Shown piece after piece: positions 21,117 to 37,949 of a stretch of DNA of 64,000 bases. Both the position numbers and the translations under genes were made by a program. The DNA comes from an uncultured Candidatus Rokubacteria bacterium (GTDB lineage Bacteria; Methylomirabilota; Methylomirabilia; Rokubacteriales; DASRDR01), in assembly GCA_963805625.1 (NCBI GenBank), contig CAWDVE010000021.1:64001-128000 (forward strand). The letters are read 5' to 3'. Below the pieces are notes generated by a model. The model was not told the origin of the DNA. It saw only the letters and a program-made list of their open reading frames with translations, and did no database searches. How positions within the stretch are numbered: position 1 is the first letter of the stretch; each line of letters opens with the position of its first letter.

Positions 21117-21416
21117 TCAGGCGAGATCCCGATCAAGGCGGAGGAGGACCTCCAGGAGAACCTTACGGCGGTCGCGAGGTGCGTCGAGTGTCCCCGCCCG
21201 CCGCCCGATCTGGTTACCGGCGGCGTCGACCGCAGGACCGAGGCCGGCCTCGACCATCCGGCCCGCCAGCCACTGGCGCGCCGACCGATCCTCGTCGGAG
21301 AAGGCGCGACGCGTGTACGGACGGTCGGGGCGCGTGAAGGTCTCGAGCGCGCGGAGATCACCGGCGAGCCGCTCGGCCGACGGCTGAGGCAGCCCGGCCG
21401 AGAGGGCGTCACTCAC
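21117..21416 (-). pseudogene. Internally deleted M20 Zn-dependent hydrolase (allantoate amidohydrolase/carbamoylase-like)
   Basis: N-terminus (TRRAFSDEDRSARQWL...DAAGNQIGR) joined directly to a C-terminal helix (KVLLEVLLRLDRDLA*); catalytic core absent. Confidence 0.65.
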
Positions 21417-21450: not shown

Positions 21451-22338
21451 TCACGTGGGCAGGACGGCCGACGCGAGCGCGCCCGCAATCCCCGCCAGCG
21501 CTCGGCCCGCTGGCGTCTCCCCGTGGTCGAGGACGAAGGGCCGCCCGCGGTCGGCGGCCGCGGCGAGCCGCGGGTCGAACGGGACTCGCCCGAGGAAGGG
21601 CAGGCCGTGCTGGGCGGCCGTCGCCTCTCCGCCCGGGCCCTCGAAGAGCGGGCCAACGGTGCCGCACGTCGGGCACACGTAGCCGGCCATGTTCTCGACC
21701 AGCCCGAGGAGCCGCGCCCCGCGCTCGCGGGCGAGAGTCATGGCGCGGCGCACGACCAGGTGGGAGACGCCGGAGGGAATCGTGACCACGACCGCGCCGG
21801 TCAGCCCGGGCAGGAGGTCGAGGAGCGTCGGCAACCGATCGGCGCCCGGCGGGAGGTCGATGAGGAGAACGTCGAGCGTGCCCCAGGCGGTGTCGGCCAG
21901 GAACTCACGGAGGGCCGTGCCCTCCATGGTCCCACGCCAGGTGTGGGCCTCGGCCTGGGTGGGAGCGTCCCACTCGACGGGCGCGTCGTCGCCGGGCAGG
22001 AGCAGATCCATCGACAGGACGCGGATCCCCTCGGCGGAGACGGCCGGCTGCACGCCATCCCGCTCGACCCGGAGCGTCTGACCGCGCACGCCCAGCATCT
22101 TGCCGATGGACGGGCCGTTGAGGTCCGCGTCGAGGACGCCCACCCGGAGCCCGCGCCCCACGAGCGCCCCCGCGAGGTTCGCGGTGACCGAGCTCTTGCC
22201 GACGCCGCCCTTGCCGGAGACCACTGCCACACTGGCGCGGATCGGGGCCATCCGGGCGGCGAGCCGTGCCTGCTGCGCGACGACCTGCTCGCGGATGTTC
22301 GAGCCGCCGTCGCCGGCGATGTCGCGATAGCCCTTCAC
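21451..22338 (-). CDS. Mrp/NBP35 (ApbC) family Fe-S carrier ATPase
   Basis: SGKGGVGKS, DADLNGPS, DLPPG, ENM..CPTC; GTGA overlap with the upstream stop. Confidence 0.9.
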   Translation of the reverse strand: MKGYRDIAGDGGSNIREQVVAQQARLAARMAPIRASVAVVSGKGGVGKSSVTANLAGALVGRGLRVGVLDADLNGPSIGKMLGVRGQTLRVERDGVQPAVSAEGIRVLSMDLLLPGDDAPVEWDAPTQAEAHTWRGTMEGTALREFLADTAWGTLDVLLIDLPPGADRLPTLLDLLPGLTGAVVVTIPSGVSHLVVRRAMTLARERGARLLGLVENMAGYVCPTCGTVGPLFEGPGGEATAAQHGLPFLGRVPFDPRLAAAADRGRPFVLDHGETPAGRALAGIAGALASAVLPT

Positions 22339-23351
22339 ACCCCGCTCCCCTCGTCGCTCGTGTCGAGCGGAGCCGCGGCGGGGTCCCGGAGGTGCGCCCG
22401 GAACCGGCACATGAGGTCCTCGCCGAGGAAATCCCCGGACTGGCCGTGACGCTCCGTCTCGAAGTAGTGCCGGATGCGATCCAGGCGCTCCTGCGCCTCG
22501 GGGTTCAGGCTCACCGTGCGGATCTCGGCCTTCGCCGCGTCGAAGGCATCGAACGTGAGTTCGGTGAAGCCGAGCTCGCGGATGCGCTTGACCGCCTTCA
22601 TCATCGCCTGGTTGCGGAACCGGGTGAGGAGCGGCGAGGTGATCTCGGCCACACCCATCCGCCGCGCGCGCCGCTCGGCCGCCTTCCGGATGCCCTCACG
22701 GACGAACTCCGGCGCCGTCTGGAGCCGCGCCCAGGCCTCGGGCGTCCAGCGCACGGGCGTCTCCGGTGCCGCCTGCCAGAGCCGCTCGACGACCTCCACG
22801 GTGACCCGGTCGAGGCCCGCGCGCCGTGCTTCGATCTCGACGTCCCGCTGGAAGAGGCGCAGCACGAAGTCCGCCATCATGGCCGGGGCCTTCCCGAGAC
22901 GCGCGACGAGCCGGGCCTCCGCCTCCGGCGTCCAGAGGAGCGGCACCGCTGCCGTTTCGGTCTCGGCCTCCGCCTCGGCTTCCCGGATCAAGGCCGGCGT
23001 TACCGCGACCGCGCCGTGCTCGGCCGCCAGCTCCTCGCAGATCCGACGCGTCATCGGCCGCATGAACGGCGGGACGGCGTCGAGCAGCGCCAGCGCCTCG
23101 GGGGTCCACGGCGCGGCCGACTGCGGAACCTGGTAGGCGCCGCTCGCGGCCAGACCCATCATCTCGCCCTTGTAGCGGGTCATGAGCTCGGGTGTGATCA
23201 CGCGGACGCCCTCGGCGCGCGCCCGCTTCTCGGCCAGCCGCCGGACCATGCCGCGGAGGAACACCGGAGCGCGCGCGACCCGCGCCTCGGCCTCCGGCGT
23301 CCAGCGCACCTCGCCGGGTTGGGGGTCCGGCGGCGATCCGGCCGCGCTCAC
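22335..23351 (-). CDS. Protein made of four tandem PCP_red-like (BchB/ChlB C-terminal) domains
   Basis: Four repeats each starting WTPEA and ending (I/V)T: WTPEAEARVARAPVF, WTPEALALLDAVPPF, WTPEAEARLVAR, WTPEAWARLQTAPEF. Confidence 0.8.
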   Translation of the reverse strand: MSAAGSPPDPQPGEVRWTPEAEARVARAPVFLRGMVRRLAEKRARAEGVRVITPELMTRYKGEMMGLAASGAYQVPQSAAPWTPEALALLDAVPPFMRPMTRRICEELAAEHGAVAVTPALIREAEAEAETETAAVPLLWTPEAEARLVARLGKAPAMMADFVLRLFQRDVEIEARRAGLDRVTVEVVERLWQAAPETPVRWTPEAWARLQTAPEFVREGIRKAAERRARRMGVAEITSPLLTRFRNQAMMKAVKRIRELGFTELTFDAFDAAKAEIRTVSLNPEAQERLDRIRHYFETERHGQSGDFLGEDLMCRFRAHLRDPAAAPLDTSDEGSGV

Positions 23352-23773
23352 GGCTCGCGGCTCCACGCCGCCCGCGCGAGCATCACGGCCGTGACGACCG
23401 TGAGGAGGCAGAAGGCCCAGGCGCCGGCCCGCAGGGACACGTCGAGCCCGAGGACGGAGACGGTCTCGGCGCGGGGCATCCGGGCGATCCGCGCCACCTC
23501 GATCGCGCGGAGCGCGACGAGAAGCGTCAGGACGCGCGCGAAGTCCCGCCGCGAGAGCACCCAGCGGTCGAACCACGCGCGCTCCTTGACGAGGAGCCAG
23601 GGGAAGACGACGACGAACAGGGCGCCCACGACGAACCAGGCCGTGCCCCCACGCTCCATGCCCCGCGGGCCGAGTCCACCGCTGGCCAGGACGAGCCCCC
23701 CGAGCCAGTAGACGACGCCGTAGGCGACGTAGGTCCAGGCAGCCTGACGGTATCGCGCCTCCCGGGTGTCCAT
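23348..23773 (-). CDS. Hypothetical membrane protein (~4 TM)
   Basis: 141 aa, hydrophobic, translationally coupled to the downstream gene. Confidence 0.7.
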   Translation of the reverse strand: MDTREARYRQAAWTYVAYGVVYWLGGLVLASGGLGPRGMERGGTAWFVVGALFVVVFPWLLVKERAWFDRWVLSRRDFARVLTLLVALRAIEVARIARMPRAETVSVLGLDVSLRAGAWAFCLLTVVTAVMLARAAWSREP

Positions 23774-23780
23774 CGCCGGC

Positions 23781-25163
23781 TCACCCGTCCCCGGCCACGG
23801 GAGGCCGGCCGGAGGCCGGCGTGAACGGTCGCCCCGGCGAGATGCCCCAGCGGCTCCGCACCTCGGCGAGGAGCGCCGGCGTCACCGTCGCCTGCCCCTG
23901 GCCGCGCGCGTAGGCCTCGACCGCCTGGACCACCATCGCCCGGGCGAACCCGGGGATGGCGTCGAGCCGGGCGCGGGCCGCCGGCTCCCACCCGAGCGCG
24001 AAGCGCACCTCGAGCCCGAACGTCTGCTCGACCCCGAGCCGGATCAGCTCGCCGCCGTGGGCACCCGGCTGGTAGCCGCAGGCCGGGTCCTCGGCGAGGT
24101 AGTCGCCGTAGGTCGCGTAGGCGCGGCAGCGGCAGCCGCCGCAGATCTCGCGGAACTCGCAGGCGCCGCACCGGCCGCCGAGCGGGCCCGTGCGAAGATC
24201 CGTGAAGACCCGGGACCGCTCCCACAGCTCGGCGAAGCCAGTCTCGCGGAGGTTCCCCGCCGCCACCGGCATGTAGGGACACGGCGTCACGTCACCCGTC
24301 GGCGTGATGCGGCAGTAGTACTTGCCGGCGGGACAGGAGCCGTGGGCGTAGTTGGCGAGGAGCGGGGAGCGGGGGTCCAGCTCGTAGAGTACCCGCCGGA
24401 AGTGCGGCGCGCACTTGGCCCGGATCAGGAGGCCGCCGGCCCGGCCGATGGGCACGCTCCACGGATCCTCGCGCCGCTCGAGGACGGAACCCGGCGCGGC
24501 CCCGTCGGGCGCGCCGCCCGCCCCCTGGGCGCGCGCCAGGTACGTGAGGATCTCCTCGTACTGCGCCGGCGTGATGTCGGTGAGGCCCTCGCCCCGGCCC
24601 GTCCGCACCAGGAAGAAGAAGTTGAGCACGCGTGCCCCGAGCTCCCGCGAGAGGTCGATCATCGCGGGGATCTCCCCGACGTTCCAGTCGGTGACGCTCA
24701 TGTGAAGCGAGAAATCGATCCCCTCCGCCCGGAGCGCCTCCGTCGCCCGGACGGCGGCGCGCCAGGCCCCGGGCAGGTGCCGGAACTCGTCGTGGCGCCC
24801 CGGATCGGTCGAGTCGAGGGAGAGCGAGGCGCCCTGGACCCCGTGCGTCTTCATGAGGCGCGCTTGCTTCTGCCGGAGGAGGACCCCGTTGGTCCCGAGC
24901 ACGACCGTGAAGCCGTGCTCGCGCCCCTCGGCGGCGAGCTCGAAGATGTCCGGGCGGAGGAGCGGCTCTCCGCCCGTTAGGATGAGGAACGTTCCGGGAT
25001 TCACCCGGGCGATGTCGGCCATCACCCGCCGGCACTCGTCCGTCGAGAGCTCGCCCGCCGCGGAGGCGCCCGGCGCCGCGCTGATGTAGCAGTGGGCGCA
25101 GAAGAGGTTGCAGCGCTGGGTGAGGTTCCACGAAACCGCGTACGCCTTGTAGGTCATCGCCAT
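23781..25163 (-). CDS. Radical SAM/SPASM enzyme (AhbD/NirJ-like) with a C-terminal PCP_red-like domain
   Basis: CNLFCAHC, TGGEPL, SPASM cysteines (CPAG..C..PCP..CGAC...CGGCRC..DPAC), tail WEPAARARLDAIPGFARAMV. Confidence 0.88.
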   Translation of the reverse strand: MAMTYKAYAVSWNLTQRCNLFCAHCYISAAPGASAAGELSTDECRRVMADIARVNPGTFLILTGGEPLLRPDIFELAAEGREHGFTVVLGTNGVLLRQKQARLMKTHGVQGASLSLDSTDPGRHDEFRHLPGAWRAAVRATEALRAEGIDFSLHMSVTDWNVGEIPAMIDLSRELGARVLNFFFLVRTGRGEGLTDITPAQYEEILTYLARAQGAGGAPDGAAPGSVLERREDPWSVPIGRAGGLLIRAKCAPHFRRVLYELDPRSPLLANYAHGSCPAGKYYCRITPTGDVTPCPYMPVAAGNLRETGFAELWERSRVFTDLRTGPLGGRCGACEFREICGGCRCRAYATYGDYLAEDPACGYQPGAHGGELIRLGVEQTFGLEVRFALGWEPAARARLDAIPGFARAMVVQAVEAYARGQGQATVTPALLAEVRSRWGISPGRPFTPASGRPPVAGDG

Positions 25164-25196
25164 AGCCGAGCTCACTCTACAACCCGTCTTGCAGGA

Positions 25197-25625
25197 TCAG
25201 TGGCGCGATGCCGCCGGTCTCCACCACGGCTGGAAGGTCGCCTCGAATTCAGCGCTCGCCCATTCAAGGCCGTCCACCCGCACAATGTACACGCCGCGCT
25301 TGAAGGCGAGCAGAGGCTCCCGTTCACCCTGAACGGTATTGACTCGGTCGCCTCGCAGGTAGACCCATAGCCGTGAGCTCCATGGCGCGAGTAGGTGGGG
25401 CTCGGCGTAGTCAAGGATGGTCCCCTCTTCGCCCCATGCTCGAACCCGTAGTGGTGGGCCCAGGGTCTCGAGGACTTCTTCGGATGTCATACCGGGACGG
25501 ACAGATCGGATGGAGGCGGCGCTGACGCCCGGTGCGACCCGCCAGTACGGTCCGACGACGCTCACCGTGAGCCCGCCTGCCACCAGGAGCGCCGTCGTCA
25601 TCGGTCGCCATCCCGCGAGGCTCAT
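25197..25625 (-). CDS. Small hypothetical protein with SmpA/OmlA-like motif
   Basis: N-terminal hydrophobic stretch, then IRSVRPGMTSEEVLETLGPP. Confidence 0.5.
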   Translation of the reverse strand: MSLAGWRPMTTALLVAGGLTVSVVGPYWRVAPGVSAASIRSVRPGMTSEEVLETLGPPLRVRAWGEEGTILDYAEPHLLAPWSSRLWVYLRGDRVNTVQGEREPLLAFKRGVYIVRVDGLEWASAEFEATFQPWWRPAASRH

Positions 25626-25714
25626 CGGGACCAAGCCTCCCGCCAGTCTGTGAGGCCTGGGCCTCTCCCTCGCGTCCAGGCTGTTGAGCGGCTGCCCACA
25701 ACTCTCCGAAAACG

Positions 25715-27616
25715 CTAGCTCTGGGGCTTGTTCTTGATGTAGCCGGCGATGACCTCGTTCATCGTGACCCGCGCGTGGCCGATCCCCTCCTCGCACAGGG
25801 CGAGGTCGATGAAGCCCACCTGCTTCTCGCGCGCCACCTTCTCGATCGCCTCGCGCGTCATGTCCCGCATGAAGCCCGCCGGCACGCGGTTCAGCCGCGC
25901 GACCGCGTCGTCGGTCCAGGTGAAGGCGCCGTTCGGGTCGGTCACGTCCTTGAGCGTCGCCTGGGCGAACCGCGTGTTGGCGATGAGCGTGTCCCAGCCG
26001 TCGCCGAGCTTGTCGCGTCCGACGGTCTCCTCGATCAGCGGGAACGCGATCTCCTTGGTGATCACGGGAATCTTGCGCGTCCGCGCGTACTTCTCGATCC
26101 GCGCCTTCGCGCGCCGCCGGAGGTAGGCGTCGGTGACCTCGCGGAGGCCCTCCCGCGCGTCGTTGGCCCAGCGGACCGTCACGCCGGGCATGACCTCCTC
26201 CTCGGCGATCCCCCCCTCGGCCGTGGCGATCTGCTCCACCGCCCGGCGGTCGATGTGCGTGAACCCCTCCGGGCCGCCCGAGCAGACCGGGCACTTCACG
26301 ACGGGGTTCGGGCCCTTCACGACGTAGCCGCAGACCGAGCAGATCGCCGTCACCGCGGCGTCCTCCGCCCGGAGCTTCGCGACCGCCAGGTCCTCGGCCA
26401 GGATCTGCATCTTCTCCGCCATCCGGCCCGGCATGAAGATCGCCATCGCCTCGTCGATCACCTTGGAGGTGATGACCGTGTGCCCCTGCTCGATCGCGTA
26501 CCGGAGGAGCGCCGTCCGGGCCACCCCCGCCACCTGCTCGGGGACCCGCTTCATCCGCTCCCGGGCCTCGTCTGTCCAGGCGATGATCTCTTCGGCCTTA
26601 ACGTCGAGGGGCGGATAGAACTTGCCCGCGACCAGGAGCACGTTGCACGGCGCCAGGCGGAGGAGGTTCTCCGTGTTGGACCCGAGGTCCGCCTCACGCT
26701 CGTCCGAGTGCACGCCGATGCGGCCCAGGATCAGGAGCCAGGGCTGCTCCTTCCGGCAGAACTGCAGCACCTTCTCGAAGCACTTGCCGTCGAGCAGCGT
26801 GATCGCGAGATCGACCCCCTCGTCGGCCGCGAGCTTCCGGCCAATCTCGAGGTGCGACTGGTAGATCTTGGCCAGCCCGGTGTCGATGATCTCCTCGTGG
26901 AGCTGCTCCTGCTCCTTGAAGCGGAAGACCTTCGAGGCCTGCTCGGTCAGCACGCCGACGATCCCGTTGAACATGGCATAGTGGAGGTAGGGATCGTAGA
27001 CGGCGACCGCATGGACCGGCCGGTGGAGGGCCTTGCCGAGCGCGATCCCGACCTTGAGCCCGTGGAAGGACTGGGGGCTTCCGTCGAGCCCGACGACGAT
27101 CGCGCCCTGCTGCGCTTCGGGCGGCTCGGGGCTCCGGATCACCAGCGTGTCGACCGGCGTCTTGCGCACAAACCGCTCGGTCACGGAGCCGAGCTGGCTG
27201 TCGCGGACCGCGCCAAGCCCGAGGGCGCCCATGATCACGAGGTCGTAGTCCTTGCCCTGGACGTCCTCGATCAAGGCCTTGTAGTGCTTGCCGTCCATCA
27301 TCCGCGGCTCGAACGGGAGCCCGGCGGCTTCCGTCTTCTTTCGCATCACCTCGAGGTACGAGTCGGAGACCAGCTGGAGGCCCATCGCGATCAGCGAGTC
27401 GTGGATCTTCCGCTGGCGCTCGAGCTCGTGCTCGTCCCGGTACTCCTCGGGCAGCGTGTACTCCATCTGCTTGAAGCGGTAGTCGTGAAGCCGCGCCGCG
27501 TAGACGTGGCAGCCGGTCAAGGTCGAGCCGAAGGCTCGCCCGAGCTCCACGGCCAGGTCGATGGCGCGGTTGGAGTAGTCCGAGTTGTCGACCGGCACGT
27601 AGATCTTCCGGAACAT
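25715..27616 (-). CDS. Multidomain protein: 2x universal stress domain + 3x PCP_red-like + rubredoxin-like site
   Basis: USP motifs KIYVPVDNS/MGALG..LGSVTE and IVVGLDGS/LGSNTENLLR; CSVCGY..CPVC; three W(T/A)xx A repeats; GGGAGG RBS. Confidence 0.88.
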   Translation of the reverse strand: MFRKIYVPVDNSDYSNRAIDLAVELGRAFGSTLTGCHVYAARLHDYRFKQMEYTLPEEYRDEHELERQRKIHDSLIAMGLQLVSDSYLEVMRKKTEAAGLPFEPRMMDGKHYKALIEDVQGKDYDLVIMGALGLGAVRDSQLGSVTERFVRKTPVDTLVIRSPEPPEAQQGAIVVGLDGSPQSFHGLKVGIALGKALHRPVHAVAVYDPYLHYAMFNGIVGVLTEQASKVFRFKEQEQLHEEIIDTGLAKIYQSHLEIGRKLAADEGVDLAITLLDGKCFEKVLQFCRKEQPWLLILGRIGVHSDEREADLGSNTENLLRLAPCNVLLVAGKFYPPLDVKAEEIIAWTDEARERMKRVPEQVAGVARTALLRYAIEQGHTVITSKVIDEAMAIFMPGRMAEKMQILAEDLAVAKLRAEDAAVTAICSVCGYVVKGPNPVVKCPVCSGGPEGFTHIDRRAVEQIATAEGGIAEEEVMPGVTVRWANDAREGLREVTDAYLRRRAKARIEKYARTRKIPVITKEIAFPLIEETVGRDKLGDGWDTLIANTRFAQATLKDVTDPNGAFTWTDDAVARLNRVPAGFMRDMTREAIEKVAREKQVGFIDLALCEEGIGHARVTMNEVIAGYIKNKPQS

Positions 27617-27780: not shown

Positions 27781-28167
27781 TCACGGCCCGCCTGGCCCAG
27801 GCTGTCCGGAGGCATCGGTCGGGTCCACCAGGTGGTCGAGCGCCAGCCAGAGCGCCTTGCTGTACCGGAACGACCAGAGCGGGAAGAAGACCGTGAAGGC
27901 GCCCCAGACGAGCACCTGCCACCGGGGGGACGGCGCGAGCCACGCCTCGAGCAGGAAGTAGCCGGCCACCGCGAGCCCCACCGTCAGGCCGTAGTTGATG
28001 TAGATCGCGCCGATGAAGTACCCGGTCTCGCGCTCGAAGAGGAGCCCACACGCCGGGCAGCGTGGCAGCATGCGAACGAGCCCGGTGAAGAGGGGCGCCC
28101 CGCCGCAGCGCGGGCACCGGAGCCCGACCGCTCGCCGGAGCGCCTGAGATACGCGGGCGCGGTCCAC
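27781..28167 (-). CDS. DUF983-like membrane protein
   Basis: CPRCG..LF..CPACG..FERETG followed by two TM helices. Confidence 0.75.
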   Translation of the reverse strand: MDRARVSQALRRAVGLRCPRCGGAPLFTGLVRMLPRCPACGLLFERETGYFIGAIYINYGLTVGLAVAGYFLLEAWLAPSPRWQVLVWGAFTVFFPLWSFRYSKALWLALDHLVDPTDASGQPGPGGP

Positions 28168-28189
28168 CTGGCGCCTCCGTCACACCCGC

Positions 28190-28603
28190 TCATCCATGAT
28201 AGAGCATCCAGTACACCACTACGCCCGTCACCGATACGTAGAGCCAGATCGGGAACGTGACCCGGGCCAGCCGCGCGTGGCGCGCGAACTGGGACCGGAG
28301 CGCCCGATAGAGGGTCGTCGAGACCAGCGGGACGATCGCGACGGCCAGCACGGTGTGGGTCAGCAGGATCAAGAGGTAGAGCGTCCGAAGCCCGCCCTCG
28401 CCGCCGTAGGGACGCGAGCCCACCTGGGCGTGATAGACAAGGTACGAGCAGAGGAACAGCACCGAGAGACCGACGGCCGTCAGCATGCAGGCCCGGTGCA
28501 CGGCGATGCGCCGCTGCCGGATGGCCACGAAGCCGACGAGCATCGCCACCGCCGCCGACGCGTTCAGCACCGCGTTGATGGTCGGCAGGATGGTGAGACT
28601 CAC
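28190..28603 (-). CDS. DUF420 (CtaM-like) oxidase-associated membrane protein
   Basis: LPTINAVLN, HRACM, FLCSYLVYH, IWLYVSVTGVVVY. Confidence 0.88.
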   Translation of the reverse strand: MSLTILPTINAVLNASAAVAMLVGFVAIRQRRIAVHRACMLTAVGLSVLFLCSYLVYHAQVGSRPYGGEGGLRTLYLLILLTHTVLAVAIVPLVSTTLYRALRSQFARHARLARVTFPIWLYVSVTGVVVYWMLYHG

Positions 28604-28634
28604 CGGCCGGTCAGCCTCGGGGTCACGACCCGCG

Positions 28635-28961
28635 TCAATGCTGCGGCGCCTCGACCTTCTTCGAGTCGGCCGTCTGGTGCGGCGCGTGGAGCGAGTCGGG
28701 CAGCAGCACCATCACCAGGAGCGCGCCGATCACCACCGGCGTGAGGGCGATGTAGCCCAGCGTCTTCACCTCGAGGCGGAGATGCATGAAGTAGAGCGCC
28801 ACCATCGCCGCCTTCGTGGAGGCCAGGATCACCAGCAACACGCCGACCGCCATCTTGGCGATGGGCAGGTAGATGACCGCGATCTCGATCACCGTGAGCA
28901 CCGCCAGGTACCAGAAGATGGCCATGTAGCTCGGCCCGTGCTTCGCGTGAGTGTCCGCCAT
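28635..28961 (-). CDS. Cytochrome c oxidase subunit IV
   Basis: LAVLTVIE, KAAMVALYFMHL. Confidence 0.88.
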   Translation of the reverse strand: MADTHAKHGPSYMAIFWYLAVLTVIEIAVIYLPIAKMAVGVLLVILASTKAAMVALYFMHLRLEVKTLGYIALTPVVIGALLVMVLLPDSLHAPHQTADSKKVEAPQH

Positions 28962-28986
28962 CGTCGCCTCCGTCCCGCTCGCGCGC

Positions 28987-29610
28987 CTACAGGAGGTAAA
29001 TGAACGTGAAGACCATGATCCAGACCAGGTCGACGAAGTGCCAGTAGAGCCCGGCGATCTCCGAGACCATGTAGTTGTACTGCATGTCCTTGACTCGGCT
29101 GATCACCTTGTAGATCGAGAGGAGGTAGATCACGCCGCCGGTCACGTGCAGCCCATGGAAGCCCGTGATGATGAAGAAGCTCGCCCCGAAGAGCGTGGAC
29201 CCCCAGGGGTTCCCGAAGATCTTGAGCCCGCGGTGAATCAGGTGTGTCCACTCGTAGGCCTGGAGCCCGACGAAGATCGCCCCGCCCAGCGCCGTGAGCA
29301 GGACGAACATCTTGGCGCGCGCCAGGTTCGAGCTCTTGAGATTCTCGAGCGCCTTCACCATGGTGACGCTCGAGCAGATCAGGAGGAACGTCATCAGGGC
29401 GGTGAGCTGGATGCCGAGCACCTGGGCTGGGTGCGGCCAGTCGACGCTGCCGGCTCGCAGGGCACCGTAGGAGGCCAGGAGCACGCCGAATCCCACGGCG
29501 TCGCCGGCCAGGAAGATCCACATTCCGAGCTTGCCCCAGCTCTCAGGCGTCAGGGGCGACTCGACCGGCTCGACGGCCGGATGGTGCAGCGCGGTAGCTG
29601 CGTCGCTCAC
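28987..29610 (-). CDS. Cytochrome c oxidase subunit III (second copy)
   Basis: KLGMWIFLAGD, TGFHGLHV, GLYWHFVDLVW. Confidence 0.9.
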   Translation of the reverse strand: MSDAATALHHPAVEPVESPLTPESWGKLGMWIFLAGDAVGFGVLLASYGALRAGSVDWPHPAQVLGIQLTALMTFLLICSSVTMVKALENLKSSNLARAKMFVLLTALGGAIFVGLQAYEWTHLIHRGLKIFGNPWGSTLFGASFFIITGFHGLHVTGGVIYLLSIYKVISRVKDMQYNYMVSEIAGLYWHFVDLVWIMVFTFIYLL

Positions 29611-29632
29611 GATCCGCTCTCCTTCCCTGCGG

Positions 29633-30322
29633 TCATACGAGGTAGACGAGCACGTACAAGACCGGCCAGAGCGCCACGACGAAGTGCCAGTAGATCGCGC
29701 AACACTCGAGCGCGACGTGCCGGTCTTGCGTGAACCGGCCCCGCCGGGCGAGCCAGAGCACCCCGCCCAGCCAGGCGGCCGCACCGAGCACGTGGACGGC
29801 GTGCACGCCGATCAGCGTGTAGAACGTGGCGCCATAGATGCCTGACGACACCCGGAGCCCGAAGTGCACCATCCGCGTCCACTCGACGCCCTGGATGACC
29901 AGGAAGAGGGCGCCGAGCCCCCACGTCCAGGCGAGCCAGCGCACGAGCCCCGTCCGGTCGTCGGCGCGGACGGCCCGGAGCGCCCGCACGAGTGTCCAGC
30001 TCGACGCGAGCAGGACGAGGGTGTTCACGGCCGTGAGCCCGACGGGGAGCCGTGGCTGGCCCGGCGGCGGCCATACCGCCGCTCCCAGGCGGAGCTGGAG
30101 GAAGGCGATCACCAGGCCACCGAAGAACATCGCCTCCCCGCCGAGGAGCATCAGCATGCCCAGGCGAGCGTTCGAGAGCGGCAGTCCCTCCGAGCTCGCG
30201 TGAGGCTCGCCATCCCCGTTGCCGTCATGGGGTCCCGGCGGAGCGGGCGGCCGCCCCCCGCGGTCCGGCACCCGATCGCGGGGCGCCTCGTGGGTCCGGA
30301 TCTCGACGTCGAGCACGGGCAC
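29633..30322 (-). CDS. Cytochrome c oxidase subunit III (first copy)
   Basis: LGMLMLLGGEAMFF, FYTLIGVHAVHV, YWHFV. Confidence 0.88.
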   Translation of the reverse strand: MPVLDVEIRTHEAPRDRVPDRGGRPPAPPGPHDGNGDGEPHASSEGLPLSNARLGMLMLLGGEAMFFGGLVIAFLQLRLGAAVWPPPGQPRLPVGLTAVNTLVLLASSWTLVRALRAVRADDRTGLVRWLAWTWGLGALFLVIQGVEWTRMVHFGLRVSSGIYGATFYTLIGVHAVHVLGAAAWLGGVLWLARRGRFTQDRHVALECCAIYWHFVVALWPVLYVLVYLV

Positions 30323-30330
30323 GAGCGAGC

Positions 30331-30471
30331 TCAGTTCCGCAGCCAGGCCACGGCGGCCGACGCGACCATGAGGAGAACGATCCAGGCCACGAGCACCACC
30401 GCCGTCCGGCGGTTTCGACTCGGAAGGCTGCGCGTGACCGTCGACCCGGCATCCGGCCTCGAGGCGGACAT
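30331..30471 (-). CDS. Small single-TM protein (46 aa) inside the cox operon
   Basis: Translated by hand: MSASRPDAGSTVTRSLPSRNRRTAVVLVAWIVLLMVASAAVAWLRN*. It fills the gap between ctaB and the first subunit III gene. Confidence 0.6.
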   Translation of the reverse strand: MSASRPDAGSTVTRSLPSRNRRTAVVLVAWIVLLMVASAAVAWLRN

Positions 30472-30495
30472 CGCGGGCGCGCGCTCGGGCACGGG

Positions 30496-31406
30496 CTAGC
30501 CGACCTTGTCCAGGGCCATGAGGACCAGCAGGAGCGGCAGATAGATGACGGAGGCGATGACCACCCGCCGGGCGGCCGGCGCCGAGGGACGGAGGGCCTG
30601 CGCCGTGCCGAAGGCCAGAAACACCGCGCCCAGGACAAGAGCTCCGAAGAAGTAGACGCCCCCCGTGAGCCCGACGAGGGTCGGCAGGAGACCGGCGGCG
30701 TGCAGGGCGAGACAGCCGGTCACGATCTGCCGCTCCGTGCTCCCGCCGTCCGGGTCGACGACCGGCAGGACGCGGATGCCGGCGCGCGCGTAGTCCTCGC
30801 GATAGAGCCGGGCGATGGCGAGGGTGTGGGGGAGCTGCCAGAGGAACAGGATGGCGAAGAGCACCCCGGCCCCCACGCCCAGCTCCCCGCGGGCCGCCAC
30901 CCAGCCCGCCACCGGCGGGAGGGCGCCGGGGATCGCGCCCAGCACCGTGCAGAGCGGGCTCACCTGCTTGAGCGGCGTGTAGACGCCGAGGTAGAGCACC
31001 GAGGTAACCGCGGTGATCGCGGCGGCGGCGGGGCCCGCCACCACCACGAGGTACGCGAGGCCGCCGACCGTCACCAGGCTACCGAAGGCGGCCGCCTCGA
31101 TCGGCTGGAGACGCCCGTCCGGGAGGGGCCGGGCACGGGTCCGCAGCATCTGCGCGTCCACGTCCCGCTCGAGGAACTGGTTGAGCGCCAGCGTCCCCCC
31201 GCCGCCAGGGCCGTCCCCACCAGGACCTGCACCAGCCGCAGGAGGTCGAGGTCCCCAGGCGCGCCGAGGTAGTATCCGACGAGCGTCGTCAGCACCACCA
31301 TCAGGACGACCCGGGGCTTCGCGAGGGCGAGAAAGTCCGCCGCCCGGCGGCGGGTCCCGGCCAGCGGGAGCGCTCCCTCCCGCACGATCGCCGTCGGTGA
31401 GGTCAC
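30496..31406 (-). pseudogene. ctaB: Protoheme IX farnesyltransferase (heme o synthase), frameshifted at the G6 run 31200-31195
   Basis: N-part LAKPRVVLMVVLTT...GTALAAG and C-part GTLALNQFLERDVDAQMLRTRARPLP...YTPLK...WQLPH are in different frames; one extra G fuses them. Confidence 0.85.
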
Positions 31407-32326
31407 GCCGCCACCTCCGTCCGCACCGCGGCCATCCGCGGCGCGGCACGCACGCCGGCGCCGAGGGCACGGCGACGGCCCAGCTGGAGCGCGAGGGCCA
31501 CCGCGCTCCCGAGGACGAGCGCTCCCACAGCCCGGTGCAGGACCGGCAGGGCGACGACGGCGACCTCCCCCCCCGGCACCCCGAGACTCGTGAAGCGAAC
31601 GGCGTAGGCGCCGAGACCGAGGAGCAGCTGGACCAGCACCAGGACCTTCACGGCACGCGCCCACCAGGCGAGGATCGGATCCTCCCGGGCGCCGCGGAGG
31701 ACGGCCAGGGCCGTCCCGACCAGGACGCCGGTCGCCACGATCGCCCCCGCCACGTGCCACCACACGGCCGTCCCGTGCGTGGTGAAGGCCCCGAGCACCA
31801 CCTGCCCGTAGACCACGGCCACCGCGAGGCTACCAAGCGACGCCAGTTGCGGGGCCCGCGCGGGCACGCTGGACGGAGCTTGCCATCCGCGGCCCGTGAC
31901 CACGGCGATCCCCACGAGGAGGGCGAAGAACAGCTGCGCCAGGCAGCCGTGGATGAGGGCTAGGGCGTCCCGCAGGAGCACGACACGCAGCCCCCCGATG
32001 AGCCCCTGGACGCAGACTAGAACGACGGCCAGGAGGCCCAGGCCGCGCACCCACCGGCGTGCGTCGACGAACCCGAGGACGGTGGCGAGAATGACGGTGA
32101 GCATCCCGATCGCGGCGCCCAGGAGCCGGTGACCGTGCTCGACCAGCACGCCCCCGACCATCCCCGACCAGGGAAAGAGGAAGGGATTGTAACCGAAGGT
32201 CGTCGGCCAGTCGGGCACGGCCAGCGCGGCCCCGGTGTTGGTGACGAGGCCGCCGGCTACGATCAGGCCGACGGTCGTCCCCGCGGTGGCGCACGCCAGG
32301 CGATGCGACCAGCCCAGAGCCTTCAT
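31403..32326 (-). CDS. ctaA: Heme A synthase (COX15/CtaA)
   Basis: GGLVT..LAVPDWP, EHGHR, QGLIGG, HGCLAQ and further conserved His residues. Confidence 0.85.
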   Translation of the reverse strand: MKALGWSHRLACATAGTTVGLIVAGGLVTNTGAALAVPDWPTTFGYNPFLFPWSGMVGGVLVEHGHRLLGAAIGMLTVILATVLGFVDARRWVRGLGLLAVVLVCVQGLIGGLRVVLLRDALALIHGCLAQLFFALLVGIAVVTGRGWQAPSSVPARAPQLASLGSLAVAVVYGQVVLGAFTTHGTAVWWHVAGAIVATGVLVGTALAVLRGAREDPILAWWARAVKVLVLVQLLLGLGAYAVRFTSLGVPGGEVAVVALPVLHRAVGALVLGSAVALALQLGRRRALGAGVRAAPRMAAVRTEVAA

Positions 32327-32355
32327 CCGTGTACCCGCGCGCTCGATCGCGGCGT

Positions 32356-34104
32356 TCAGTGCCCGTGCCCGCCCGCGCGGGCGCCGGCGACCACCTGGGT
32401 CTGGGGCAGGTAGTCCTCGATCATCCCGGGGACGCTGTACTCGTAGGGACCCCGGTAGACCGTCGGGATCGCCGCCCCCCAGTTGCCGTGGGGCGGAGGC
32501 GACTCCGCCGTCCACTCGAGCGTGTTGGAGTGCCAGGGATTCCGGTCCGCCTTCCGCCCATTGAACAGGCTCGCGACGAAGTTCCAGATGAACAGGATCT
32601 GCGCAACGCCGAGGATGAACGCGGACACCGACATGAACACGGCGATCGGCTGGAGGGACTGGAGGAACTCGTACTGCGTCGGATTGTAGATCCGTCGCAT
32701 CATCCCGCCCACCCCCAGGAAGTGCATCGGGAAGAACACGAGGTTGAAAAAGACGAACGTGAGGATCGCGTGGATCCGCCCCATCGTCTCGTTCATCTCC
32801 CGACCGAAGAGCTTCGGGTACCAGTACGTGATCGCAGCGAACATCGCGAAGATGATCCCCGCCACCACGTAGTGGAAGTGGGCCACGATGAAGTAGGTAT
32901 CGTGGATGAAGATGTCGACCGGCGTGTTGGCCATGAAGATGCCGCTCAGCCCGCCGATCGTGAACGCCGACAGGAACGAGATGGCATGGATCATCGGCGT
33001 CGTGAACCGGATCGAGCCGCCCCAGAGCGTCCCGAGCCAGTTGAACGACTTGATGGCGGACGGCACCGCGATGACCATCGTCGTCAGCATGAACGACGTG
33101 CCCAGCGCGGGGCTCATGCCGCTGACGAACATGTGGTGGCCGTAGACGATCCACGACAGGAACGCGATCGAGATCATCGAGTAGGCCATCGCCCGGTACC
33201 CGAAGATCGGCTTCCGCGAGAAGGTGGACAGGACGTCCGAGGTCACCCCCATGGCGGGCAGCACCAGGATGTAGACCTCCGGGTGGCCGAAGAACCAGAA
33301 GAGGTGCTGCCAGAGCAGCGGCTCACCGCCCCCCGACGGGTCGAACCAGTGGGTCCCGAGCGTGCGGTCGAAGAGCAGCATCGCCGCCGCCGACGTCAGC
33401 ACGGGCAGCGCCAGCAGGAGCAGGATGGCCGTGATGAACAGGGACCAGATCACGAGCGGCAGCCGGAATAGTGTCATGCCGGGCGCCCGCATATTGACGA
33501 CCGTCGTGATGTAGTTGATCGAGCCCATCATCGACGACACGCCGAGGAAGAACAAGCTGATGAGCCAGAGGTTCTGGCCCCAGTTCACCCCGGTGTACTG
33601 CGGATTCGCCGAGAGCGGCGCGTAGGCCGTCCACCCGGCCGCGGCGTGGCCGCCGGGCACGAAGAAGCCGGCCAGCATGATGACGCCCGACAGGGCGCCC
33701 GTCCAGAACGAGAGCATGTTGAGCTTGGGGAACGCCATGTCCCGGGCGCCGATCATGAGCGGGATCAGGAAGTTCCCGAAGCACCCCACCATGATCGGCA
33801 TGACCACGAAGAAGATCATGAGGGTGGCGTGCATCGTGAACAGCATGTTGTAGACCTCGGGCGGGATCACGCCCTCCGTCTCGCTGAAGAGCCAGTGGAG
33901 GCCGGGCACCGGCGTCTCGGGCCAGCCCAGCTCCCACCGGATCAGCATGGCCAGGAAGCCGCCGATCAGCAGCATGAACAGCCCGAGAAACAGGAACTGC
34001 CGGGCGATCATCTTGTGGTCGGTCGAGAAGATGTACGTGCGCACGAACCCGAGGTCGTGGTGCTCGTGGACGTCGTGCGCCGCTGCCGTCGTGCTCTGAG
34101 CCAT
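32356..34104 (-). CDS. coxA: Heme-copper oxidase subunit I, A1 type
   Basis: MHAT, RDMAFPKLN (D-channel), FGHPEVY, HHMF, AIK (K-channel), AHFHY, GMMRR. Confidence 0.96.
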   Translation of the reverse strand: MAQSTTAAAHDVHEHHDLGFVRTYIFSTDHKMIARQFLFLGLFMLLIGGFLAMLIRWELGWPETPVPGLHWLFSETEGVIPPEVYNMLFTMHATLMIFFVVMPIMVGCFGNFLIPLMIGARDMAFPKLNMLSFWTGALSGVIMLAGFFVPGGHAAAGWTAYAPLSANPQYTGVNWGQNLWLISLFFLGVSSMMGSINYITTVVNMRAPGMTLFRLPLVIWSLFITAILLLLALPVLTSAAAMLLFDRTLGTHWFDPSGGGEPLLWQHLFWFFGHPEVYILVLPAMGVTSDVLSTFSRKPIFGYRAMAYSMISIAFLSWIVYGHHMFVSGMSPALGTSFMLTTMVIAVPSAIKSFNWLGTLWGGSIRFTTPMIHAISFLSAFTIGGLSGIFMANTPVDIFIHDTYFIVAHFHYVVAGIIFAMFAAITYWYPKLFGREMNETMGRIHAILTFVFFNLVFFPMHFLGVGGMMRRIYNPTQYEFLQSLQPIAVFMSVSAFILGVAQILFIWNFVASLFNGRKADRNPWHSNTLEWTAESPPPHGNWGAAIPTVYRGPYEYSVPGMIEDYLPQTQVVAGARAGGHGH

Positions 34105-34152
34105 CGTGTCCCTACCTCCCTCGCGAGAGGGTCTCTGTCCGGCGGGGCCGGC

Positions 34153-34809
34153 CTAGGAAGGCCATTTTTCCTTGAGCCACTGCTGGTATTCCTCGGGCGT
34201 GTGGACGAAGAGGTAGCCCTTCATCCCGGAGTGGCCGAACCCGCACAGCTCGGCGCACGGGATCTCGTACTTTCCGGGCTTGGTCACCTCGACCCACTGG
34301 ACGATCTCACGGCCGGGTACCGCGTCCTGCTTGAAGCGCGCGGTCGGAATGAAGACGCTGTGGATCACGTCTCGCGCGCGCAGGTGCATGACCACCGGCT
34401 TGCCCGTCGGCACGTGCAGCTCGTTGTCGAACGACTGGTCGTCGGCCGTGTCGAACTTCCCGTCCGGCCCCGGGTACTGAACCTCCCAGTTGAACTGCTT
34501 TCCGGTGATGCGGACGTGGAGATCGGACTCGGGGATGCGGCTCTTGACCTTCGACCAGCTCGGGATCGAGAGGAAGGTGAGCACGACCAGGATCAGGGAG
34601 GGAACGATCGTCCACACCATCTCGAGGGTCGTGTTGCCGTGGCTGTAGACCGCCCTCCGGCCGGGCCGCTCCCGGTACACCACCAGGAAGGCCACCAGCA
34701 GCACCGTCACGAGCACGAACACGCCGCCGGTGATGTAGTAGATCAGATAGAAGAGGTCGTCGAGCTCCTTGCCGTACGTGGCAATGTTCTCAGGGAGCCA
34801 GCTCATCAT
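34153..34809 (-). CDS. coxB: Cytochrome c oxidase subunit II (CuA)
   Basis: LEMVWTIVP, DVIHS, CAELCGFGHSGM. Confidence 0.95.
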   Translation of the reverse strand: MMSWLPENIATYGKELDDLFYLIYYITGGVFVLVTVLLVAFLVVYRERPGRRAVYSHGNTTLEMVWTIVPSLILVVLTFLSIPSWSKVKSRIPESDLHVRITGKQFNWEVQYPGPDGKFDTADDQSFDNELHVPTGKPVVMHLRARDVIHSVFIPTARFKQDAVPGREIVQWVEVTKPGKYEIPCAELCGFGHSGMKGYLFVHTPEEYQQWLKEKWPS

Positions 34810-34884
34810 CGCAGTCGGCCCGTCCTTTTCGATCGAAGGGGGGTCACGGCCTCGCCGCGCGCCTGGGCTCGGGCCCCGAACTCC

Positions 34885-34928
34885 GGCGTGCGCTCCCGCG
34901 GACCGCCTCGGCTACGGGAGCGCACGCC
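34885..34928 (-). promoter_or_regulatory. Intergenic stem-loop between the cupredoxin gene and coxB
   Basis: GGCGTGCGCTCCCG (34885-34898) and CGGGAGCGCACGCC (34915-34928) form a perfect 14-bp inverted repeat. Confidence 0.6.
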
Positions 34929-34939
34929 ATTCCGGGGTC

Positions 34940-35638
34940 CTACTTCTTTAGCTCGAACGCGACCTTGGTGTCCTGCCCGGCCTTGACCTCGACCTCTTTG
35001 GTCTGCTTGCCGAGCACCGGGTGAACGACCTCGACCTTGTGCTTACCGGGCGGCACGTTCTCCAGCTTGAACGCGCCGTTGCCGTCGGTCACCGCCGTGG
35101 GGTTCTCGGTCACGAAGATCCACCCGTGCATCCAGCTGTGGGCGTCGCACTGGACCTTGACGAGCTCGGGCTTGTCGAGCTTCTCCACCATCTCCTTCTT
35201 GAACTTCGGCTGCGCCTTGTTGATCGGCGGATTGGCTGTGGAGAAGGTGTGGATGTTGTGGAGAACGCCGTCCGAGTTGAGGATCTTGAGCTCGCCGGGC
35301 GACATCACGAGGAGATCCGGATGAAACTCGCAGCCCTTCTGATCGAGGACGGCCGGCTTCGCCGGCTTGGCGCCCTTGGCATCGGTGACGGACACGAGCG
35401 CTTCGCTCAGCCCACCACCGGCGCCGACGACGACGTCGGCGACCTTCTTCTCCTGGCCGCAGACCTCGCTGTCCTTGTTGACCTTGATGACCTTGGGCGC
35501 AGGGGCGGCGCCGGTGAACTTCACCTCGCCGCTGATCGACCCTCCGCCCTGGGCGCTCAACGGCGGCCCTGAGATCAGGGCGACCCCCGCCGCGACGACC
35601 GCGACGGCCAGCACGCTAACGACGATCGACTGCCTCAT
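34940..35638 (-). CDS. Exported cupredoxin-like protein flanked by a carboxypeptidase-regulatory-like domain
   Basis: Signal peptide; DQKGCEF, NSDGVLHNIH, CDAHSWM (type-1 Cu ligands); AGGAGAAGGA upstream. Confidence 0.82.
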   Translation of the reverse strand: MRQSIVVSVLAVAVVAAGVALISGPPLSAQGGGSISGEVKFTGAAPAPKVIKVNKDSEVCGQEKKVADVVVGAGGGLSEALVSVTDAKGAKPAKPAVLDQKGCEFHPDLLVMSPGELKILNSDGVLHNIHTFSTANPPINKAQPKFKKEMVEKLDKPELVKVQCDAHSWMHGWIFVTENPTAVTDGNGAFKLENVPPGKHKVEVVHPVLGKQTKEVEVKAGQDTKVAFELKK

Positions 35639-37946: not shown

Positions 37947-37949
37947 CGG

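What the first reader, a model, noticed from the sequence alone, without database searches (positions are those of the whole stretch)
21451..27616. Module built on eight PCP_red-like domains (USP fusion, radical SAM fusion, 4x repeat protein, Mrp ATPase) attached to a terminal-oxidase cluster
Seen: the same ~45-aa helical motif (W-[TE]-x-[EDA]-A-x3-L-x2-[AVI]-P-x-F...[IV]-T) occurs 3 times in the USP protein, once at the end of the radical SAM/SPASM enzyme and 4 times in a stand-alone protein. These genes sit with a 4-TM protein and an Mrp/ApbC ATPase, partly linked by GTGA overlaps. Known: the motif resembles the PCP_red domain of the dark protochlorophyllide reductase subunit BchB/ChlB; AhbD/NirJ-type SPASM enzymes modify hemes; Mrp/ApbC delivers Fe-S clusters. 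Inference: the domain acts as a shared docking or tetrapyrrole-binding tag that assembles a cofactor-maturation complex, possibly making a modified heme for the adjacent bd-like oxidase or EB_dh cytochrome. There are no photosynthesis genes in the window. I recall similar gene sets near Nitrospira bd-like oxidases, but I know of no functional description.
Basis: partly seen in the sequence, partly recalled or inferred. Interest (0 to 1): 0.85.

Follow-up and report, generated by a model that had tools for sequence, protein, structure and literature searches.

The report
Heme-tailoring kit for bd-like oxidase
A gene set that repeats a small chlorophyll-enzyme domain eight times is inherited almost in lockstep with the still-uncharacterised "bd-like" respiratory oxidase of nitrite, manganese, iron and sulfur oxidisers, and it likely makes and loads a special heme for that enzyme rather than ordinary heme.

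Summary
Observation confirmed. There are 8 Pfam PCP_red domains (3 in the tandem USP, 1 on the radical SAM/SPASM enzyme, 4 in the repeat protein), two GTGA overlaps, and no BchN/B in this Rokubacteria-type genome.

The conserved core is USP + radical SAM, not the whole five-gene string. It tracks the Q-loop-less OR-N CydA, not the aa3 oxidase. USP and CydA agree in 133/151 Methylomirabilota, 149/151 genomes of a gammaproteobacterial order and 108/111 Nitrospirota, often unlinked.

The enzyme forms its own AhbD/NirJ-related clade and coexists with separate AhbD, HemN+HemJ or ChdC routes, so plain heme b supply is unlikely. Proteobacterial copies carry a private HemY. The USP keeps both ATP motifs and four near-invariant histidines on helical inserts. 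The repeat protein is a split-off tail of the enzyme. The Mrp is a lineage-limited subtype paired with a PCP_red protein.

Best reading (0.5): a dedicated heme-tailoring and loading kit for OR-N oxidases. The 'docking tag' role is unproven, and some USPs lack the domain. This scan noted the module before on other genomes (at least 7 notes, mostly read as anaerobic heme b supply). My paper searches found no description.

The parts
25715..27616 (-). Tandem USP (633 aa): USP-USP-PCP_red-rubredoxin knuckle-PCP_red-PCP_red; both USP domains keep the G-2x-G-9x-G-S ATP motif; helical inserts carry H44/H72 and H212/H240, plus H303
26444..26578 (-). PCP_red 1 (USP residues 347-391), the most conserved USP copy
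26282..26341 (-). Rubredoxin-like knuckle (C426, C429, C442, C445); absent from many homologs
26036..26170 (-). PCP_red 2 (degenerate, 25.9 bits)
25784..25918 (-). PCP_red 3
25197..25625 (-). 142-aa ORF with a weak BamE/SmpA-like match and low GC3; likely a recent insertion, not part of the module
23781..25163 (-). Radical SAM/SPASM enzyme (CxxxCxxC at 18/22/25; SPASM cysteines 251, 277, 295, 332, 335, 341, 344, 362), new AhbD/NirJ-related clade, ending in PCP_red 4 (23990-23856)
23348..23773 (-). 141-aa hydrophobic membrane protein, no Pfam/NCBIfam family; atlas neighbours are unnamed Methylomirabilota clusters
22335..23351 (-). Repeat protein (338 aa): PCP_red 5-8 (starting 23303, 23108, 22934, 22748) plus a helical C-terminal domain; homologous to the fused tail of proteobacterial rSAM enzymes
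21451..22338 (-). Mrp/ApbC-type ATPase (295 aa), special subtype without the N-terminal extension of the housekeeping copy; deviant Walker A and CxxC (222/225) kept
38798..40678 (-). Q-loop-less CydA-like (OR-N type) subunit, the likely client; conserved H80, H194, H250, H402, H552
35673..38792 (-). Diheme cytochrome c (38792-37950) and cytochrome c/EB_dh fusion (37946-35673) that accompany the CydA-like gene; cannot be separated from it as possible clients
27781..35638 (-). Cupredoxin-like gene and aa3 oxidase/ctaAB/DUF420/DUF983 block lying between the CydA cluster and the module; local context of Rokubacteriales

Best explanation
The genes at 21451-27616 encode a USP and radical SAM core that is co-inherited with the OR-N 'bd-like' CydA complex and likely works as a dedicated kit that tailors a non-standard heme and loads it into that complex. 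Shown: domain content, gene order, co-occurrence, and the separate clade. Inferred steps: (1) a coproporphyrin(ogen)- or coproheme-stage tetrapyrrole is drawn from the cell's pathway, and a HemY oxidises the ring (a private copy in Proteobacteria, the housekeeping one here); (2) the AhbD/NirJ-related enzyme alters ring A/B side chains by radical chemistry, with its C-terminal PCP_red acting as a lid or hand-over surface; (3) the ATP-binding tandem USP holds the tetrapyrrole or its metal on paired histidines and passes it on; (4) in Nitrospiria and Methylomirabilota a special Mrp, with a PCP_red partner, supplies or repairs the enzyme's Fe-S clusters; (5) the repeat protein is a detached copy of the enzyme's tail. 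The aa3 oxidase is a neighbour, not the client.
For: Co-occurrence of USP and OR-N CydA (both/neither/USP only/CydA only): Methylomirabilota 87/46/11/7 of 151; gammaproteobacterial order 20/129/2/0 of 151; Nitrospirota 38/70/2/1 of 111. In that gamma order the same 22 genomes carry USP, rSAM and HemY. 36 of 38 genomes whose USP locus showed no CydA have one elsewhere. In 9 Nitrospirota with both genes on contig C1, USP is over 200 kb from the nearest listed CydA. rSAM is the next gene in 57 of 68 distant loci with room. 12 of 16 genomes without it there have it elsewhere, 3 of them near CydA. Heme b routes are already present: a separate, better AhbD in 5 of 5 tested Nitrospirota (438-529 bits against 295-320), three of them checked by neighbours, two beside hemE; HemN over cut-off in 2 of 2 gamma genomes and HemJ in 4 of 5 Proteobacteria; ChdC-family genes in 3 of 3 Nitrospirota/Methylomirabilota tested; HemE-HemY, ferrochelatase and a partial ChdC-like match in this genome. 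38 module enzymes fall on one side of a branch against 11 AhbD-like/TIGR04053 rows (SH-aLRT 100, quick tree; 0.89 with NirJ added). They have a NirJ-type N-terminus (N13, Y26) and an AhbD-type SPASM half. HemY is in 29 of 32 proteobacterial loci with room and 0 of 24 others. USP H44 and H72 are kept in 58/60, H212, H240 and H303 in 60/60, on predicted helical inserts.
Against: No substrate, product or binding was measured. Co-inheritance cannot tell CydA from its cytochrome c and EB_dh partners as the client. Kin are not independent, fragmentary genomes blur the tables, and CydA thresholds differed between groups (1e-60, 1e-60, 1e-140). The best family scores are still to AhbD/NirJ2 (286-333 bits, cut-off 500), and the SPASM half and CAPH motif are AhbD-like. 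The module HemY scores better to protoporphyrinogen oxidases 2ivd/1sez than to B. subtilis 3i6d and keeps their Arg, which argues against a coproporphyrin supplier. A CydAA' with only b hemes reduces oxygen (Murali preprint, passages), so a special heme is not required in the superfamily. The module rSAM was not found in 4 of 16 USP genomes.
Confidence: 0.5

Rival explanations
1. The module is a private heme b supply and loading line: the enzyme is a divergent AhbD (or acts like HemN on the porphyrinogen), HemY finishes the ring, and the USP channels ordinary heme b into the OR-N complex, especially at low oxygen.
For: Top family matches are AhbD/NirJ2; AhbD-type CAPH and SPASM cysteines; the module HemY resembles protoporphyrinogen oxidases; heme b ligands are reported conserved in bd-like oxidases (PMC3578206, passages); most earlier scan notes read it so.
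Against: It is redundant with a better AhbD in 5 of 5 genomes and with oxygen-independent HemN (2 of 2) and HemJ (4 of 5) in Proteobacteria. It forms a separate clade with fixed changes at E13N, R26Y and the CAPHYY tyrosines. A general heme supplier would not be expected to track one oxidase family this tightly.
Confidence: 0.25
2. The radical SAM enzyme acts on the oxidase itself, making a protein cross-link or a covalent heme attachment in CydA or a partner cytochrome, with USP and PCP_red domains acting as chaperones and docking tags.
For: SPASM enzymes include peptide maturases, and PqqE/MftC-type models match weakly. Tight co-inheritance fits any dedicated maturase. The OR-N CydA has extra conserved histidines and Arg where canonical CydA has a heme-ligand Glu (the canonical residue is recalled).
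Against: Scores to heme enzymes (about 300 bits) far exceed peptide maturases (at most 145); a private HemY is explained only by a free tetrapyrrole substrate.
Confidence: 0.1
3. One reading: PCP_red is a docking tag for Mrp-type ATPase dimers, and the whole set is one Fe-S/heme assembly complex organised by that tag.
For: The module-type Mrp is followed by a zinc-ribbon/PCP_red gene in 16 of 16 loci outside this phylum, against 0 of 4 housekeeping Mrp loci. The repeat protein is fused to the rSAM in Proteobacteria. The domain's other known host, BchB, works with the related ATPase BchL (contact with BchL is recalled, papers not held).
Against: No module-type Mrp was found in 17 proteobacterial genomes, whose USP and rSAM carry the most PCP_red copies, nor in 8 of 9 non-Nitrospiria-like Nitrospirota. 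Five USPs lack the domain. Copy number varies from 0 to 6.
Confidence: 0.1
4. The USP is a copper or redox/heme sensor or metallochaperone for the OR-N complex, and the heme enzyme is a loosely attached passenger.
For: A CopD-like gene is in 22 of 80 loci and SCO in others; a cupredoxin-like gene with a conserved C-x2-H-x2-M lies nearby; Cys-Pro motifs occur in 11 of 59 USP homologs; a copper site was proposed for a Nitrospira bd-like oxidase (PMC6606698, passages).
Against: USP and rSAM profiles are identical in the gamma order (22 of 22); the minimal module is USP core plus rSAM.
Confidence: 0.05

Closest known systems
AhbD heme b synthase (TIGR04545) / NirJ2 (TIGR04055)
   Same: Radical SAM + SPASM layout, CAPH motif and auxiliary-cluster cysteines; best family scores; 34-40% identity to AhbD-like paralogs.
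   Different: Scores 286-333 against a cut-off of 500; separate clade; N13/Y26 where AhbD has E/R; C-terminal PCP_red; coexists with better AhbD genes; paired with a USP, not with ahbABC.
Heme d1 maturation (NirJ and the nir operon) for cytochrome cd1
   Same: Likely logic: a dedicated radical SAM tailoring step making a heme for one respiratory enzyme (PMC7242693, passages); NirJ-type WN..HCY N-terminus.
   Different: NirJ model scores only 164-195 bits against 515; 26-34% identity; no nirDLGH/nirF/nirN seen in the loci; true NirJ is present separately in 9 of 9 gamma genomes tested.
PCP_red domain of DPOR BchB/ChlB and cyanobacterial Asr4154 (PF08369)
   Same: Same domain by profile, sequence and fold; sits on a tetrapyrrole enzyme that has Fe-S clusters and a P-loop ATPase partner.
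   Different: No BchN/B core in the genome; fused to USP, rSAM and zinc-ribbon proteins, up to six copies per chain.
Tandem ATP-binding USPs (Rv2623, TTHA0350, UspE)
   Same: Fold (Foldseek E 2e-16) and both ATP motifs.
   Different: About 30-residue helical inserts with paired near-invariant His, a PCP_red/rubredoxin tail, sometimes a PNPOx-like barrel; phyletic profile tied to one oxidase family.
Mrp/ApbC/NUBPL Fe-S carriers (PF10609)
   Same: Deviant Walker A, CxxC, Pfam score 240 bits.
   Different: Second copy beside a canonical Mrp; short helical leader instead of the housekeeping N-terminal extension; altered WRGP segment; paired with PCP_red genes.
OR-N family 'bd-like' CydA complexes (Nitrospira NIDE0901 type; Manganitrophus terminal oxidase clusters)
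   Same: Q-loop-less CydA with cytochrome c, EB_dh-domain and cupredoxin-like neighbours.
   Different: The passages read mention no radical SAM or USP maturation genes; this module would be the missing biogenesis kit.

Membership tests
PCP_red domain (PF08369) | Pfam profile over the curated cut-off | tested here: met
   80.9, 44.9 and 146.4 bits for the three proteins, cut-off 32.5; 6 of 8 single domains over it alone
PCP_red domain (PF08369) | Three-helix fold like 2kru/2l09 | tested here: met
   2l09 Z 10.2, rmsd 2.2, 62 aligned; 2kru Z 7.9, rmsd 4.3, on a low-confidence model
DPOR (BchLNB/ChlLNB) | Nitrogenase-like N/B subunits | tested here: not met
   PF00148: no match in the 99.9%-complete genome
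AhbD heme b synthase | TIGR04545 score of 500 or more | tested here: not met
   298 for the window protein, 286-333 for 5 homologs
AhbD heme b synthase | CxxxCxxC plus SPASM auxiliary-cluster cysteines and CAPH | tested here: met
   invariant in 47 rows; aligned to AhbD-like paralogs
AhbD heme b synthase | Groups with AhbD in a tree | tested here: not met
   38 module rows on one side against 5 AhbD-like, 5 TIGR04053 and 1 other, SH-aLRT 100 (quick tree, no characterised AhbD included)
AhbD heme b synthase | Coproheme to heme b activity | not testable with these tools
   needs an assay
NirJ (heme d1) | TIGR04051 score of 515 or more | tested here: not met
   168-195 bits for the module enzymes
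TIGR04053 radical SAM family | Score of 395 or more | tested here: not met
   244-284 bits; the two C14 paralogs do pass, at 438 and 447
ATP-binding tandem USP | Two USP folds, each with G-2x-G-9x-G-(S/T) and the beta-1 Asp | tested here: met
   (motif definition recalled; the window's second motif has a 10-residue spacer, most homologs 9)
ATP-binding tandem USP | Measured ATP binding | not testable with these tools
   needs an assay
Mrp/ApbC Fe-S carrier | PF10609 over cut-off, deviant Walker A, C-terminal CxxC | tested here: met
Mrp/ApbC Fe-S carrier | NCBIfam ApbC/MrpORP equivalog cut-off | tested here: not met
   159.5 against 348 and 240.6 against 450
OR-N cytochrome bd-like CydA (client) | CydA N-terminal half only, no Q-loop match, cytochrome c/EB_dh neighbours, close to Nitrospirota bd-like proteins | tested here: met
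   Pfam positions 2-240 of 418 only; 44-56% identity to Nitrospirota copies
OR-N cytochrome bd-like CydA (client) | Subfamily (OR-N1/N2/...) by reference tree | not tested
   reference alignments are in supplements that were not held
CgoX-type HemY (module HemY of Proteobacteria) | Closer to B. subtilis 3i6d than to M. xanthus 2ivd | tested here: not met
   module copies rank 2ivd first; housekeeping copies of G000 and G182 rank 3i6d first

The most novel reading that the evidence does not exclude
OR-N bd-like oxidases use a heme not yet described, made by a third branch of the AhbD/NirJ radical SAM family, and a universal stress protein serves as its ATP-driven chelatase or heme chaperone through two His-bearing helical hairpins. 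That would be a heme d1-style private cofactor pathway behind the respiration of Nitrospira, Manganitrophus, Gallionellaceae and sulfur-oxidising symbionts, and a new catalytic role for the USP fold.
Probability: 0.35. Interest if true: 0.92.

Novelty: new variant of a known kind. Interest (0 to 1): 0.74.

Why it matters
The terminal oxidase of Nitrospira and related lithotrophs is a long-standing open question: the OR-N bd-like enzymes are proposed but uncharacterised (passages). A two- to three-gene core that follows this family across three phyla, even when unlinked, names the genes one would have to co-express to obtain holo-enzyme and predicts which heme to look for. It also gives testable roles to a domain of unknown function (PCP_red), a USP subfamily, a radical SAM clade and an Mrp subtype.

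Tried and rejected
Complex prediction of USP(1-410) + heme + rSAM(1-444) with paired 47-row alignments returned no answer (score 0.00, controls not folded); it is no evidence either way. The single-sequence model of the repeat protein was poor (pLDDT 52, pTM 0.24), so packing of the repeats and the fold of its C-terminal domain stay open. Its PCP_red units also align with AAA+ lid domains (MCM, RuvBL, BchI; Z 6-8), too weak for helical bundles to call kinship. A search for Mrp-PCP_red fusions listed only the 120 closest of 7996 hits, none fused; this is not a test of absence. The atlas gave no named family for TM4 or the repeat C-terminal domain. Rejected: photosynthesis/DPOR remnant. Rejected: the aa3 oxidase as client (CoxA in 4 of 80 distant loci; 5 of 5 USP-negative Rokubacteriales still have a CoxA, but at 44-47% identity, so of another type). 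Rejected: the module Mrp as the housekeeping carrier. The careful IQ-TREE search did not finish; the quick tree is used. Paper searches for PCP_red (6 unrelated listings), PF08369 (3 trait-survey listings), PCP-red + protochlorophyllide, and two gene-combination searches (each) found no description. Subscription papers are not covered, and the DPOR ternary-complex paper, the PF08369 NMR paper and the OR-N supplements were not held, so the role of the domain in BchB is recalled only and OR-N operon figures may already show these genes.

Full report
OBSERVATION. The window lies on contig C21 of a 7.27 Mb genome whose USP homologs are labelled Rokubacteria/Methylomirabilota. On the minus strand, after a CydA-like / cytochrome c / EB_dh / cupredoxin-like block and an aa3 oxidase block, come USP (27616-25715), a 142-aa ORF (25625-25197), a radical SAM/SPASM gene (25163-23781), a 141-aa membrane protein (23773-23348), a repeat protein (23351-22335) and an Mrp ATPase (22338-21451). 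Pfam finds PCP_red 3 + 1 + 4 times. The genome holds a ninth copy on C16, in a zinc-ribbon protein, and no BchN/B. The GTGA overlaps are real. The small ORF has low GC3 and no homolog in loci of other genomes, so it is probably an insertion.

ANATOMY. The USP model (pLDDT 88, pTM 0.65) is a tandem USP most like Rv2623 and TTHA0350. Both domains keep the ATP motif. Each carries a helical insert with two histidines 28 residues apart: H44/H72 (58 of 60 rows) and H212/H240 (60 of 60); H303 is also invariant. The enzyme scores best to AhbD and NirJ2 but far under their cut-offs (298 for the window protein, 286-333 for five homologs, against 500). Its N-terminus is NirJ-like (N13, Y26 where AhbD has E, R), and its CAPH motif and SPASM cysteines are AhbD-like. 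In a quick tree, 38 module enzymes stand on one side against 11 AhbD-like and TIGR04053 rows (SH-aLRT 100); support is 0.89 with five NirJ added. No biochemically characterised AhbD was in either tree. The repeat protein's C-terminal domain matches the tails of proteobacterial rSAM enzymes that carry about three further PCP_red copies (E 1e-7 to 1e-16), so it is a detached part of the enzyme. The Mrp is a second copy beside a canonical one.

WHAT IS CONSERVED. rSAM follows USP in 57 of the 68 distant loci with at least 1.5 kb downstream (L116 is a further, frameshifted case) and in 33 of the 40 phylum loci. Of 16 genomes without it there, 12 have it elsewhere, three of them near the CydA gene. 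Other genes vary. HemY is in 29 of 32 proteobacterial loci with room and 0 of 24 others; a CopD-like gene is in 22 of 80, an Mrp in 5 of 80 (one of them housekeeping-type), CoxA in 4 of 80. The repeat protein is in 6 of 40 phylum loci and Mrp in 34 of 40. Five Nitrospirota USPs end after the USP core, keep the four histidines, and are still followed by rSAM + PCP_red. PCP_red is therefore constant on the enzyme and optional on the USP. The module-type Mrp occurs, unlinked, in Nitrospiria and is followed by the zinc-ribbon/PCP_red gene in 16 of 16 loci, against 0 of 4 housekeeping loci. It was not found in 17 proteobacterial genomes or in 5 USP-negative Rokubacteriales.

WHICH ENZYME IT SERVES. 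USP against OR-N-type CydA, as both/neither/USP only/CydA only: Methylomirabilota 87/46/11/7; the order of G158 20/129/2/0; Nitrospirota 38/70/2/1. In the gamma order, exactly the same 22 genomes have USP, the rSAM and a HemY. Linkage alone does not explain this: 36 of 38 genomes whose USP locus showed no CydA have one elsewhere, and in nine Nitrospirota with both on contig C1 the USP is more than 200 kb from the nearest CydA listed at E 1e-140. Limits: relatives are not independent, many genomes are fragmentary, thresholds differed, and the cytochrome c and EB_dh genes travel with CydA and could be the true client.

WHY NOT PLAIN HEME B. The module coexists with every known route. This genome has HemE-HemY, a ferrochelatase and a partial ChdC-like match; three other Nitrospirota/Methylomirabilota have ChdC-family genes. 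Two gamma genomes have HemN over the cut-off and no ChdC, and HemJ is in 4 of 5 Proteobacteria; their single HemY lies in the module island. Five of five Nitrospirota tested have a separate, better AhbD (438-529 bits, two over the cut-off), two of them beside hemE. Against my reading: the module HemY looks more like protoporphyrinogen oxidases and keeps their Arg (the role of that Arg is recalled); the enzyme's second half is AhbD-like; a b-heme-only CydAA' is active; and 4 of 16 USP genomes gave no module rSAM.

MECHANISM. Most likely (0.5), a kit that tailors a non-standard heme and loads it into the OR-N complex: ring oxidation by HemY, side-chain radical chemistry by the rSAM with PCP_red as lid or hand-over surface, ATP-dependent holding or metallation by the USP histidines, and Fe-S supply by the special Mrp in some lineages. 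All chemical steps are inferred. Rivals: a private heme b line (0.25), modification of the oxidase protein (0.1), one complex organised by PCP_red docking on Mrp (0.1), and a copper or sensor role (0.05).

WHAT IS KNOWN. Passages read: the Murali preprint 10.1101/2021.01.16.426971 (OR-N defined; 0 hits for radical SAM or universal stress), PMC12342949 (OR-N oxygen affinity unknown), PMC9040806 (poorly characterised terminal oxidases), PMC3578206 and PMC6606698 (bd-like gene clusters), PMC7242693 (AhbD, NirJ, PgoX), PMC13474568 and PMC12022308 (DPOR; no passage on the BchB C-terminal domain found). Searches found no description of the module; some searches were seen as listings. Three papers or supplements were not held. 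The scan has noted this module before on other genomes, mostly as an oxygen-independent heme b helper. The genome-wide profile, the coexistence with AhbD and HemN/HemJ, the PCP-less USPs and the rSAM-repeat fusion are what I tested here, and they shift the reading towards a dedicated, probably modified, heme.

VERDICT. Real, widespread, undescribed in the papers I could search; a new variant of a known kind (a dedicated cofactor-maturation set, like the heme d1 genes). Interest 0.74, because it makes the OR-N oxidase question directly testable.

Noticed in passing
G000:C16:172665-173450 (L001): Ninth PCP_red gene: zinc ribbon + GCPF motif + PCP_red, next to a small membrane-protein gene; its homologs follow the module-type Mrp in Methylomirabilia and Nitrospiria.
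   Followed up: yes
window 25197-25625: Low-GC3 142-aa ORF with a weak BamE-like match, inserted between USP and rSAM; no homolog in the other loci held.
   Followed up: partly
P0133, P0176, P0199, P0206; L205, L207: A PNPOx-like split-barrel domain is fused to some USPs, and a similar gene follows the rSAM in two Nitrospirota loci; possibly another heme- or flavin-binding member of the module.
   Followed up: no
L051, L052, L067, L104, L221: The module or its island sits beside two di-heme peroxidase genes, a Rieske subunit and an AioA-like molybdoenzyme (resembles iodate reductase clusters; label recalled).
   Followed up: no
L058, L062, L080, L089, L090, L095: In betaproteobacterial loci a beta-propeller gene with a weak nitrous oxide reductase propeller match lies between the OR-N cluster and USP.
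   Followed up: no
L231-L239: All 9 module-bearing gammaproteobacterial genomes tested have a true NirJ (heme d1), and anaerobe-type Nitrospirota also carry OR-N + module; a nitrogen-oxide substrate for OR-N is worth testing. No baseline was measured.
   Followed up: no
G000:C14:118497-119549 and 136839-137855 (L013, L012): Two TIGR04053 radical SAM genes flank a second heme-copper oxidase-like cluster.
   Followed up: partly
L084:6523-8967 and 20 other loci: An ~820-aa HEAT-repeat gene sits just upstream of the cupredoxin-like gene and USP in many proteobacterial loci.
   Followed up: no
L253:3133-3777, L254:1-443: A gene resembling heme-oxygenase-like TenA/PqqC-type proteins (label by eye) follows Mrp and the zinc-ribbon PCP_red gene in two Nitrospirota.
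   Followed up: no
window 21117-21412: Fragment resembling the start of an amidohydrolase gene right after Mrp; the intact-looking gene of similar length follows Mrp in relatives such as L144.
   Followed up: no
L111 / G175 / G086: A record titled as an acidobacterium is the same genome as a handle placed in the window's own order, so record titles are not reliable for phylum counts.
   Followed up: partly
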